DNA from: a virus
Lineage: Duplodnaviria > Heunggongvirae > Uroviricota > Caudoviricetes
DNA length: 4,489 nt
IMG/VR virus record: IMGVR_UViG_2671180268_000011
Direction: 5' to 3' (one strand)
Made by a program: the position numbers
Part shown: piece after piece, positions 3,001 through 4,489 of the stretch
How positions within the stretch are numbered: position 1 is the first letter of the stretch
Layout: each line of letters opens with the position of its first letter

Positions 3001-4489
3001 CCCACCAACATAGTCAGACTGGGCCCAGAACGAATAGCGGGAGTCAACCTACTGGAATGTTTCCGGCAGGGAGTACTCAAGTTAGCGGGACTAATCAGGT
3101 TGGTATCAGTGGCTCATTAACCAGTGGCACCTCCCAATGGGTAGGTAAATCATCTTCAGAAGGAAACCATACACACTCACTGTCCGGCACAGCAGCATCT
3201 GCGGGTGCACACGCGCATACTGTCGGTATTGGTGCTCATACGCACTCTGTTGCGATTGGTTCACATGGACACACCATCACCGTTAACGCTGCTGGTAACG
3301 CGGAAAACACCGTCAAAAACATCGCATTTAACTATATTGTGAGGCTCGCATAATGGCATTCAGAATGAGTGAACAAGCACGGACCATAAAAATTTATAAC
3401 CTGCTGGCCGGAACTAATGAATTTATTGGTGAAGGTGACGCATATATTCCGCCTCATACAAACAAAAAACAGCCTGATGCAGGTAGCCAGTGAGCATATA
3501 GCGCCGCTTCAGGATGCTGTGGATCTGGAGATCGCAACGGAGAAAGAAACCTTGTTGCTGGAAGCTTGGAAAAAGTATCGGGTGTTGCTGAACCGTGTTG
3601 ATACATCAACTGCACCGGATATTGAATGGCCAGTAGCACCTATAGGGTAAATTCGTAATGATTACCTAAATACGTTATTCTTTTGTTAAAAAAGTGATTT
3701 TGCTATAGGTAGGGAGTATGTTCTTGGATTAAGAATAAAAAATCGCCATGAAAGAGCTTCATGGCGAGTACATAAACGTACAAAATGTGATGAAAGTAGA
3801 GTGGCGTAAGCCACTATATTAAGATATGACAATAGCGAAGAAAAGTAAATAACATTTTATGGACGTTTAATTGTTAATTATAAAAACTAGAGTGCCCGAT
3901 ATTGTTTATCTTGCTTTAAAATAATGTACTCAAACCAAATTTTTGAGCTAAAAGCTCAAATAATATAAATGCAATAATAATGTTTAATAAGACAATTAGC
4001 TTGCTTTGTATTTTCATTTCGGAATACTGTTAAGTAACTTTGATGACCCTAACAATAGATCGGAATTTTCTTAGAGTCAATGGTCACTGTTTTTGCTTGC
4101 AAAGCAAATGTTTTGGTGGTTATAAGTCGTCTTAATATAGTCACGCATGCAACTTGTTCCATGCGGAGATTAAAGATTGGAATATAACGCGAAGATGGAA
4201 TTAAATTACATTTGCAATAATTAATTTATTATTACTCAATAATTACCGATATTATTATTGTAAATTAATCATTAGAATGCAAAAAGAAATGTAACGGCAA
4301 AATAAGAGGACGATAGCTGAGAAAAAAGCGTGCTTTCCCAATCTGGGGCAAATCACGTCTGAATGACACCTGAAAACAGGTGGTAGCCTCAAGAAGGCTG
4401 GTGATGCTGCCAACTTACTGATTTAGTGTATGATGGTGTTTTTGAGGTGCTCCAGTGGCTTCTGTTTCTATCAGCTGTCCCTCCTGTTC

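What the first reader, a model, noticed from the sequence alone, without database searches (positions are those of the whole stretch)
3651..4399. Very AT-rich, ORF-poor island between the tail-fibre module and IS1
Composition drops sharply after tfa: a sampled block (3961-4020) is about 20% GC by hand count, against about 67% in the stf shaft (1141-1200). The track has no ORF of 60 codons or more here on either strand, yet the island holds terminator hairpins, promoter-like hexamers and short ORFs. It could be horizontally acquired cargo, a silenced regulatory region for a gene beyond the window, or a small RNA or small-protein locus.
Basis: seen in the sequence. Interest (0 to 1): 0.6.

Follow-up and report, generated by a model that had tools for sequence, protein, structure and literature searches.

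The report
Unannotated YncL-like small-protein gene in prophage
The AT-rich "empty" stretch after the phage tail-fibre genes is a patchwork whose left part most likely holds an overlooked 33-amino-acid membrane-peptide gene, a distant relative of the E. coli stress peptide YncL, with its own promoter-like site and terminator; it occurs in about 15% of complete E. coli genomes and was unannotated in every RefSeq genome row shown.

Summary
In detail: the island is 31.5% GC against 55% in stf, and it has no ORF of 60 codons or more. That ORF poverty is what the base composition predicts. The island is a mosaic.

- **Module A (3651-4228)** follows tfa in attλ-, Qin- and Rac-type prophages. It carries a leftward unit:
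  - a σ70-like promoter (4080→4052);
  - a 33-codon ORF (4017→3916);
  - a nearly invariant, strongly folding 3' region;
  - a strong intrinsic terminator (3767→3743).
- **The ORF** stays open in every copy. It shows purifying selection (pN/pS 0.16) and is the only stop-free frame of six.
- **YncL link.** The ORF specifically resembles the small membrane protein YncL. The NCBIfam score is 25 bits, below the 35-bit cut-off, but no shuffled control matches.
- **4229-4399** is an AT-rich linker plus a relic prophage end. In intact relatives the relic runs into a serU tRNA fragment, captured host DNA and a YdeO-like AraC regulator gene. IS1 cuts it here.

Transcription, translation and function are inferred, not shown. 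Verdict: a new, unannotated member of a known kind, of moderate interest. An sRNA role for the conserved 3' region remains open.

The parts
3353..3650 (+). tfa (tail fibre assembly) pseudogene; forms the left border of the island
   Evidence: A 283-bp internal deletion at about 3460 relative to mEp332 and L006 tfa. It splits into two short ORFs.
3651..4228 (-). Module A: leftward small-gene cassette, 30.1% GC
   Evidence: Found behind tfa in attλ-type, Qin-type (96% identity) and Rac-type (80% identity) prophages. Its conserved core is in 827 of 5426 genomes. Only 4 phage records carry it, although at least 64 share this tfa 3' end.
3735..3767 (-). Intrinsic terminator: 11-bp stem at 3767->3743, then a U-run at 3742->3735
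   Evidence: Found. The stem is invariant in 18 variants and the only change is at the loop-closing pair (G.U to A-U). There is no T-run on the plus strand, so it acts leftwards only.
3735..3858 (-). Nearly invariant structured 3' region: long-range helix 3858-3852/3788-3782, hairpin 3815-3800, small hairpin 3781-3768, terminator
   Evidence: MFE -29.1 kcal/mol, z = -5.6, 0 of 200 shuffles fold as well. Only 4 differences in 78 nt against the Rac-type copy, whereas the flanks differ by 33-44%. One compensatory pair and several G.U changes, but no significant covariation.
3877..3882 (-). Perfect TATAAT, a possible internal promoter for a ~135-nt RNA
   Evidence: Read from the sequence. TATAAT in 38 of 40 variants and TACAAT in the Rac type, inside an otherwise diverged stretch. 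There is no good -35, and the scan did not flag it.
3916..4017 (-). 33-codon ORF: MKIQSKLIVLLNIIIAFILFELLAQKFGLSTLF, a YncL-like single-pass membrane peptide
   Evidence: Open in all 40 unique copies. pN/pS is 0.16 and 0.06. It is the only stop-free frame of six. NCBIfam YncL E = 1.3e-5, with negative shuffle controls. BLASTP against K-12 YncL gives 11/28 identities. Pfam YncL is a weak precomputed hit.
4052..4080 (-). Sigma-70-like promoter TTGACT-17-TATTGT
   Evidence: Found. The -35 is TTGACT in 39 of 40 variants. The -10 is TATTGT in 38 and TATCGT in the 2 Rac-type variants, while neighbouring sequence diverges.
4118..4228 (.). Conserved non-coding block upstream of the promoter; the right end of module A
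   Evidence: 72-86% identical in the copies from other contexts (L007, L008, L038 types), and conserved into about 4185 in the third context. The local ORFs are broken by indels. Its role is unknown.
4229..4314 (.). Module B: AT-rich linker, 24.4% GC, with short A/T repeats
   Evidence: Seen only in the full-island (attλ-type) copies. Repeats; GC.
4315..4399 (.). Module C: relic end of a serU-integrating lambdoid prophage, 48.2% GC
   Evidence: Occurs alone near the right end of prophages in O26, O157, ST131 and other strains. In intact loci it continues into the 3' 60 nt of serU plus 278 bp of K-12 flank.
4400..4489 (+). Left end of IS1; forms the right border of the island
   Evidence: The same junction is found in 79 genomes. 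In the two inspected (L005, L006), IS1 is followed about 206 bp later by the AraC gene, and in L005 IS1 replaces 550 bp of the intact spacer.

Best explanation
The island is a composite piece of a defective lambdoid prophage. Its left 578 bp (module A) form a self-contained, leftward-transcribed accessory unit of the 'moron' type. A sigma-70-like promoter (4080->4052) would drive a transcript of about 310 nt. That transcript carries a 33-codon ORF (4017->3916) and a long, almost invariant, strongly folding 3' region. It ends at a strong intrinsic terminator (3767->3743), which stops transcription before it runs antisense into the tail genes. The product is a single-pass inner-membrane peptide distantly related to YncL. 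By analogy with YncL it would insert in the inner membrane and alter membrane potential and stress physiology of the lysogen. The remainder (4229-4399) is an AT-rich linker plus the relic end of a serU-integrating prophage, cut by IS1. Shown here: the sequence features, their distribution, the selection on the ORF and the similarity to YncL. Inferred: transcription, translation, membrane location and physiological effect.
For: ORF: it is open, with the same start and stop, in all 40 unique copies, and a 5-bp indel falls just outside it. Against the 80%-identical Rac-type copy there are 18 nt differences but only 5 mostly conservative residue changes. pN/pS is 0.16 (Fisher p = 2e-5). None of 20000 random placements of the same substitutions gave so few residue changes. 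It is the only one of six frames without stops and has the lowest pN/pS. YncL link: NCBIfam NF000537 E = 1.3e-5; 9 shuffled or reversed controls gave no hit and true YncL scored 68.6 bits; BLASTP gave 11/28 identities without gaps, E = 2e-7; Smith-Waterman score 60 against 20 +/- 4 for shuffles, 0 of 20000 as high; an independent precomputed Pfam PF28073 weak hit. Transcription signals: the -35 and -10 hexamers are retained across types while neighbouring sequence diverges, and the terminator is strong. Accessory status: 30% GC; present in 827 of 5426 genomes in three prophage contexts, always directly after tfa; absent from lambda and most phages that share this tfa end. YncL biology: overproduction causes sublethal depolarisation and nucleoid condensation (PMC12542507).
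Against: There is no recognisable Shine-Dalgarno sequence before the ATG (GTATTCCGAAATG), whereas K-12 yncL has AAGGTGG. The YncL score is below the curated cut-off (25 against 35 bits), and my own Pfam scan returned nothing. Only three sequence lineages exist, so the selection test rests on few independent substitutions. Segments of module A recombine, so some conservation may reflect recent exchange. The 3' region is more conserved than the ORF, which could mean the RNA rather than the peptide is the main product. The promoter is only a 9/12 consensus match, and such matches occur at the chance rate in this DNA. No expression data were available.
Confidence: 0.6

Rival explanations
1. The functional product is mainly or additionally a small RNA. 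The invariant ~124-nt 3' domain (3858->3735) would be released by processing of the mRNA or transcribed from the TATAAT at 3882->3877. It would act as a base-pairing regulator, with the invariant single-stranded stretch UCUACUUUCAUC (3799-3789) as a candidate seed. This does not exclude the peptide; the locus could be a dual-function 'coding sRNA'.
For: Only 4 of 78 positions differ from the Rac-type copy, where neighbouring DNA differs by 33-44% and synonymous sites by 56% (P about 3e-9 at 33% divergence). The fold has z = -5.6. It ends in a terminator with a U-run. Variant pairs are mostly G.U on the minus strand (5 types) and there is one compensatory G-C to A-U change. TATAAT is retained as TACAAT in the Rac type. 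Precedent: the Salmonella yncL ortholog lies within the RNA first catalogued as sRNA STnc1110 (PMC5437024).
Against: No Rfam family matches the island at E <= 1. Covariation is not significant (306 of 500 shuffles reach the observed score), and the structure was predicted on this strand, which biases the strand comparison. There is no convincing -35. A recombination joint sits at the terminator (the L038 type), so recent exchange could explain the invariance. No target is known.
Confidence: 0.25
2. The island is functionally inert: an AT-rich, H-NS-silenced spacer and regulatory region for the YdeO-like AraC gene further right. On this reading the ORF and hairpins are incidental.
For: In intact loci the island is the tail-proximal half of a 1.5-kb gene-free stretch upstream of that regulator. 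It is 24-31% GC. The RefSeq (PGAP) genome rows shown annotate nothing here. The ORF has no Shine-Dalgarno sequence.
Against: Module A occurs without the AraC gene in Qin- and Rac-type prophages. The ORF shows frame-specific purifying selection. The strong terminator points away from the AraC gene. The H-NS high-affinity motif is not enriched (3 matches against 1.0 +/- 1.0 expected; 17 of 200 shuffles as high). In this window IS1 separates the two.
Confidence: 0.15
3. The unit is a type I toxin-antitoxin module: the hydrophobic peptide is a membrane toxin whose translation is held down by an antisense RNA from the plus strand.
For: The peptide is small and hydrophobic. Its homolog YncL depolarises the membrane when overproduced (PMC12542507). 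The ORF has no Shine-Dalgarno sequence, as with some tightly repressed toxins. A plus-strand promoter-like site lies at 3826-3855, facing the ORF.
Against: That plus-strand site is a 9/12 match at the chance rate, and its -35 is degraded in the Rac type (read from alignment A1). No plus-strand terminator follows it. There is no match to toxin families in NCBIfam or PADLOC. YncL itself is not classed as a toxin.
Confidence: 0.08
4. The island is the decayed remnant of a larger cargo gene, such as an effector or restriction gene, and the short ORFs are fragments of it.
For: Similar positions behind tail-fibre genes hold effector genes in O26 prophages. The region is AT-rich like much horizontally acquired cargo.
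Against: All other ORFs are broken by indels or carry only non-synonymous changes between copies. The 33-codon ORF is a complete unit, with its start and stop both conserved and full-length similarity to the 31-aa YncL.
Confidence: 0.03

Closest known systems
YncL (E. coli K-12 b4598; NCBIfam NF000537, Pfam PF28073)
   Same: Similar length (31 against 33 aa). Same layout: a short polar N-terminus, an LxN motif, one hydrophobic helix and [KR]FG near the C-terminus. 11 of 28 residues are identical without gaps. Both are encoded on a short monocistronic unit.
   Different: It scores below the family cut-off (25 against 35 bits). It lies in a prophage cassette instead of the chromosomal patD-ortT interval. 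It has no Shine-Dalgarno sequence, whereas yncL has AAGGTGG. The 3' UTRs are unrelated. Nothing is known of its regulation, whereas yncL is reported as induced by heat shock, minimal medium and stationary phase or stress in E. coli (Hemm et al., as cited in PMC12542507), and its Salmonella ortholog is sigma-S-dependent (PMC5437024).
Phage 'morons' such as lambda lom and bor or HK97 gp15 (from my own knowledge of the Hendrix/Juhala concept; not tested against a database)
   Same: It is an extra transcription unit with its own promoter-like site and terminator. Its base composition is deviant. It lies beside the tail genes and is present in some phages and absent from close relatives.
   Different: It is far smaller (33 codons) and is transcribed against the late operon. 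Expression from the prophage and any benefit to the lysogen are untested.
Salmonella STnc1110, the 'coding sRNA' that contains the yncL ortholog (PMC5437024)
   Same: A short sRNA-like transcript that encodes a YncL-type peptide.
   Different: No sequence match was found (no Rfam family at E <= 1 in the island). The conserved 3' domain here has no known counterpart.
Prophage AraC-like regulators of the YdeO/AppY/PatE/Psr group; this concerns the neighbouring gene, not the island
   Same: The gene beyond IS1 in related genomes scores best against the YdeO model and sits at a lambdoid prophage end behind a long AT-rich upstream region (PMC10057817 for AppY).
   Different: It lies outside this window and scores below the YdeO equivalog cut-off (149 against 348 bits). 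Module A travels independently of it.

Membership tests
YncL family (NF000537 / PF28073) | Profile score at or above the curated cut-off | tested here: not met
   25.0 and 23.5 bits against a cut-off of 35, while K-12 YncL scores 68.6. Pfam YncL appears only as a 'weak' precomputed hit and not in my own scan.
YncL family (NF000537 / PF28073) | Sequence similarity to YncL beyond what the composition of a hydrophobic peptide gives | tested here: met
   E = 1.3e-5 against 18,950 models. 0 of 9 shuffled or reversed controls hit anything. 0 of 20000 shuffles reach the Smith-Waterman score. BLASTP E = 2e-7.
YncL family (NF000537 / PF28073) | Peptide of about 30 aa with one transmembrane helix | tested here: met
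   33 aa. Residues 7-24 (LIVLLNIIIAFILFELLA) are hydrophobic apart from N12 and E21, read from the translation. Membrane insertion itself was not tested.
YncL family (NF000537 / PF28073) | Chromosomal position between patD and ortT (orthology) | tested here: not met
   K-12 yncL lies between patD and ortT. This ORF always lies after a prophage tfa gene. It is at best a paralog.
Phage moron | Own promoter and terminator flanking the gene | tested here: met
   Met at the level of consensus matches only: TTGACT-17-TATTGT and an 11-bp stem plus U-run, both retained across sequence types.
Phage moron | Present in some phages and absent from close relatives at the same position | tested here: met
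   4 phage records carry it. 64 records cover at least 80% of the tfa-end query, and lambda's tfa matches query positions 2-132 at about 92%.
Phage moron | Base composition unlike the neighbouring genes | tested here: met
   30.1% GC against 55.4% in stf.
Phage moron | Expressed from the repressed prophage | not testable with these tools
   This needs RNA-seq of a lysogen.
Terminator-ended base-pairing sRNA (3'UTR-derived type) | Stable structure ending in an intrinsic terminator with a U-run | tested here: met
   (z = -5.6).
Terminator-ended base-pairing sRNA (3'UTR-derived type) | Covariation supporting the fold | tested here: inconclusive
   98.8% of cells are paired, but 306 of 500 shuffles do as well because there is too little variation. 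There is one compensatory pair.
Terminator-ended base-pairing sRNA (3'UTR-derived type) | Match to a described RNA family | tested here: not met
   No Rfam hit in 3651-4399 at E <= 1.
Type I toxin-antitoxin | Antisense RNA gene with its own promoter and terminator overlapping the toxin mRNA | tested here: not met
   There is only a chance-level plus-strand promoter-like site at 3826-3855 and no plus-strand terminator.
H-NS-silenced upstream region of the AraC gene | Genetic linkage of the region to that gene | tested here: not met
   This holds for module A, which occurs without the AraC gene in L007 and L008. Modules B and C are linked to the gene in the attλ-type loci.
H-NS-silenced upstream region of the AraC gene | Enrichment of the high-affinity H-NS motif | tested here: inconclusive
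   3 matches in the whole window against 1.0 +/- 1.0 expected, and only one of them lies in the island.

The most novel reading that the evidence does not exclude
The cassette is a dual-function prophage gene. Its mRNA encodes a YncL-like peptide that depolarises the membrane. Its almost invariant 124-nt 3' domain is released as a regulatory sRNA that acts on host or phage mRNAs. Together these would give lambdoid prophages in about 15% of E. coli strains a compact lever on host stress physiology or on superinfecting phages.
Probability: 0.15. Interest if true: 0.6.

Novelty: new member of a known kind. Interest (0 to 1): 0.4.

Why it matters
If the peptide is made, about 15% of complete E. 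coli genomes carry an unannotated gene (933 copies, up to three per genome). That gene would add a phage-borne relative to YncL, a small membrane protein recently shown to lower membrane potential. It would also be one more case of automatic annotation missing small genes in AT-rich prophage DNA. It is a simple candidate for a lysogenic-conversion or phage-exclusion function, testable in the K-12 phage mEp332. The dissection also shows that "empty" prophage ends are stratified records of past events: an accessory cassette, a relic attachment site with captured host DNA, and an IS1 insertion with an adjacent deletion next to a YdeO-like regulator.

Tried and rejected
**Searches that gave nothing usable**
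- The search for related loci on species-representative genomes found 270 pattern matches, none confirmed by tblastn.
- A degenerate ORF pattern found nothing in those genomes.
- tblastn of the peptide and of YncL against phages returned no match, even for the four phages that encode the peptide. The low-complexity filter is probably the cause, so the result is uninformative.
- PHROGs, my own Pfam scan and PADLOC gave nothing.
- phmmer against 1.84 billion representatives found only the peptide itself and a frameshifted allele.
- Rfam found nothing in the island.
- No paper contains the peptide sequence or links YncL to a prophage relative.
- The covariation test has no power.
- The H-NS motif is not enriched.

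**Other ORFs rejected**
- The 37-aa ORF at 4049-4162 (-), annotated as hypothetical in PhiR70_1, and the 35-aa ORF at 4080-4187 (+) are broken by 1-2 nt indels in other copies.
- The 24-aa ORF at 3748-3822 (+) differs from the Rac-type copy only by non-synonymous changes and overlaps the terminator.
- The 48-aa ORF at 3686-3832 (-) runs through the terminator and is frameshifted by a 1-nt deletion in the Qin type.
- The 52-aa ORF at 4255-4413 (-) is an island/IS1 chimera.

**Other**
- The plus-strand hairpin at 4094-4111 is not kept in the Rac type.
- The metagenome scan was not used, because every pattern search returned the same three sequence types.

Full report
**1. The observation**

The window holds the following features:
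- the end of lom;
- a 1029-codon stf gene (264-3353);
- a broken tfa (3353-3650);
- the island (3651-4399);
- the left end of IS1, from 4400.

GC falls from 50-64% in stf to 26-35% in the island. The island as a whole is 31.5% GC against 55.4% for stf.

No ORF of 60 aa or more lies in the island. That is what the composition predicts. 76% of shuffles have none either, and the observed maximum of 48 aa is at the median.

Promoter-like hexamers occur at the chance rate (6 found, 4.6 +/- 2.0 expected). Terminator-like hairpins exceed chance (2 found, 0.6 +/- 0.8 expected). Both are on the minus strand, and one is very strong (3767->3743 plus TTTTTTATTC).

**2. Where else the DNA occurs**

- Part of the island is present in 1343 of 5426 complete E. 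coli genomes and the full length in 280. It is always chromosomal, and no feature is annotated under the match in any RefSeq genome row shown.
- Four lambdoid phage records carry it: mEp332, PhiR70_1 and two records of ev099.
- In intact loci the island is the tail-proximal half of a 1.5-kb gene-free stretch. This stretch lies between tfa and a 247-aa AraC-family gene, in prophages sitting at the bio-ybhB (attλ) site.
- That regulator scores best against YdeO and GadX but far below the equivalog cut-off. It belongs with the prophage regulators of the AppY/PatE type.
- The exact source genome is not in the collection. The best whole-window matches are 96-97% identical.

**3. The island is a mosaic**

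- **Module A (3651-4228).** Positions 1-578 of the island recur at about 96% identity behind a tfa fragment in Qin-type prophages next to ydfJ. They recur at 80% identity in a Rac-type prophage. Neither context has the AraC gene, and in both the module is followed by a second tfa 3' fragment in direct orientation.
- **Module C (4315-4399).** Positions 665-749 recur alone near the right end of many lambdoid prophages, for example in O26, O157 and ST131 strains. In intact loci module C continues through about 130 bp of AT-rich DNA into the 3' 60 nt of tRNA-Ser serU, followed by 278 bp that match the K-12 serU-yodB interval at 96.7%.
- **What module C is.** The ST131 prophage lies next to zinT, close to where serU sits in K-12. 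I therefore infer that module C is the end of a serU-integrating prophage. In the attλ phages it would be a relic carried along with captured host DNA.
- **IS1.** 79 genomes share this window's IS1 junction. In the two I inspected (L005 and L006) the AraC start lies about 206 bp beyond IS1. In L005, IS1 replaces 550 bp of the intact spacer, including the serU relic.
- **Module B (4229-4314)** is a 24% GC linker with short A/T repeats.

**4. What module A contains**

Read on the minus strand, module A holds, in order:
- a promoter-like site TTGACT-17-TATTGT (4080->4052);
- a 33-codon ORF (4017->3916);
- about 150 nt of untranslated sequence;
- the strong terminator.

*Coding evidence*
- The ORF is open, with the same start and stop, in all 40 unique copies I collected. 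These came from 45 viral contigs that carry the conserved core (four more, found with the peptide pattern, also keep the ORF open) and from the fetched genome and phage loci.
- Against the Rac-type copy it has 18 nucleotide differences but only five residue changes (V9I, I15F, F17L, E21K, S30Y). Seven codons differ only synonymously.
- Nei-Gojobori pN/pS is 0.16, and 0.06 against the third lineage.
- None of 20000 random placements of the same substitutions gave so few residue changes. Fisher p is 2e-5.
- It is the only one of the six frames without stops, and it has the lowest pN/pS.
- A 5-bp indel lies immediately outside the stop codon.
- The other short ORFs, including two annotated as hypothetical in phage records, are broken by indels or change only non-synonymously.

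*Relation to YncL*
- The peptide MKIQSKLIVLLNIIIAFILFELLAQKFGLSTLF matches NCBIfam NF000537 (stress response membrane protein YncL) at E = 1.3e-5 and 25 bits. The curated cut-off is 35 bits.
- Nine shuffled or reversed controls matched nothing, and K-12 YncL scored 68.6 bits.
- BLASTP against K-12 YncL (MNVSSRTVVLINFFAAVGLFTLISMRFGWFI) gives 11 of 28 identities without gaps, E = 2e-7.
- The local alignment score of 60 compares with 20 +/- 4 for shuffles, and 0 of 20000 shuffles reach it.
- The collection's precomputed Pfam hits independently flag the product as PF28073 YncL (weak).
- I therefore treat it as a distant, prophage-borne paralog of YncL, not an ortholog.

*What is known about YncL*
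- It is a 31-aa inner-membrane protein, reported as up-regulated in minimal medium, on heat shock and in stationary phase or under stress (Hemm et al., as cited in PMC12542507).
- Its production causes sublethal membrane depolarisation, the phage-shock response and nucleoid condensation (PMC12542507).
- It is cleaved by RseP in vivo (PMC10470546).
- Its Salmonella ortholog lies in an RNA first listed as sRNA STnc1110 and is sigma-S-dependent (PMC5437024).

*Distribution of the peptide gene*
- Gene callers hardly ever predict it. Only the peptide itself and a frameshifted allele reach significance among 1.84 billion cluster representatives.
- A degenerate ORF pattern finds nothing in 185,579 species-representative genomes.
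- The conserved core of module A is present in 827 of 5426 E. coli genomes, in 933 places.
- Lambda and at least 60 other phages share this tfa end but lack the cassette, as expected for an accessory 'moron'.

**5. The 3' region**

- The stretch from the hairpin at 3815-3800 to the end of the terminator stem differs from the Rac-type copy at only 4 of 78 positions. The flanks differ by 33-44% and synonymous sites in the ORF by 56%. The probability of so few differences is about 3e-9 at 33% divergence.
- It folds with z = -5.6.
- The consensus fold has a 7-bp long-range helix (3858-3852 with 3788-3782), the hairpin, a small hairpin and the terminator.
- Variation inside the helices is nearly all G.U-compatible on the minus strand, and there is one compensatory G-C to A-U change.
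- With so little variation the covariation test has no power: 306 of 500 shuffles reach the observed score. The strand comparison is also biased, because the fold was predicted on this strand.
- A perfect TATAAT lies at 3882->3877 and is kept as TACAAT in the Rac type. It could start a ~135-nt RNA, but there is no convincing -35.
- A recombination joint sits at the terminator in the L038 type, so recent exchange is an alternative reason for the invariance.
- An sRNA or dual-function reading therefore stays open but unproven. Rfam has no match in the island.

**6. Mechanism, with what is shown and what is inferred**

*Shown:* the anatomy, the distribution, the frame-specific purifying selection and the specific similarity to YncL.

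*Inferred:*
- the cassette is transcribed leftwards from its own promoter in lysogens;
- the terminator protects the tail genes from antisense transcription;
- the peptide inserts in the inner membrane;
- like YncL, the peptide lowers membrane potential or otherwise tunes stress physiology, possibly affecting superinfecting phages.

*Weaknesses:*
- there is no Shine-Dalgarno sequence;
- the family score is below threshold;
- only three sequence lineages exist;
- there are no expression data.

**7. Verdict**

Of its three interpretations, the small-protein and small-RNA option is the one supported. The regulatory-region option holds only for the layout of the right-hand part.

This is a new, unannotated member of a known kind (YncL-type small membrane proteins, carried in a phage moron) and is of moderate interest. 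The rest of the island is a relic attachment-site arm cut by IS1.

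Noticed in passing
window 3430-3610 (+): A strong match to Rfam family IS009 (RF02111; 165.8 bits, gathering score 117) lies inside the tfa coding sequence. The family may simply be modelling conserved tfa sequence.
   Followed up: no
window 3353-3650: tfa carries a 283-bp internal deletion at about 3460 relative to mEp332 and strain 2009C-3133, so the prophage is defective in tail-fibre assembly.
   Followed up: yes
window 4400-4489; L005 7151-8125; L006: The same IS1 junction is shared by 79 complete genomes. In L005 and L006 IS1 lies about 206 bp upstream of the YdeO-like AraC gene, and in L005 it replaces 550 bp of the intact spacer. This could alter that regulator's expression.
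   Followed up: partly
L001 (phage mEp332) 5862-6199: A free-living lambdoid phage genome carries the 3' 60 nt of tRNA-Ser serU plus 278 bp of the K-12 serU-yodB interval (96.7% identity). This looks like host DNA captured by aberrant excision from a serU site.
   Followed up: yes
L007 6580-6700; L008 6546-6645: In Qin- and Rac-type prophages module A is followed by a second tfa 3' fragment in direct orientation, so the cassette is bracketed by tfa ends.
   Followed up: partly
window 3651-4228 compared with L007, L008, L038: Module A is itself recombinant. The three segments 3651-3742, 3743-4117 and 4118-4228 occur in different combinations of sequence types, with joints at the terminator and near 4118.
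   Followed up: partly
P0003: A 43-aa allele of the peptide is produced by a frameshift after codon 26 and is present in public assemblies.
   Followed up: no
window 231-256 (+): A GC-rich hairpin plus T-run follows lom (GCCCGCCGGTTCAGGCGGGCTTTTTT). This terminator is what produces the weak Trp_leader hit in Rfam.
   Followed up: no
window 845-1263 (-): Two weak isrG (RF01390) hits, far below the gathering score, fall in the Ala/Ser-rich repetitive stf shaft. They are probably low-complexity artefacts.
   Followed up: no
literature: KilS, an sRNA from the kilR 3' UTR of the Rac prophage, has chromosomal yncL as a RIL-seq target (PMC8175672). So there is already one prophage link to YncL biology.
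   Followed up: no
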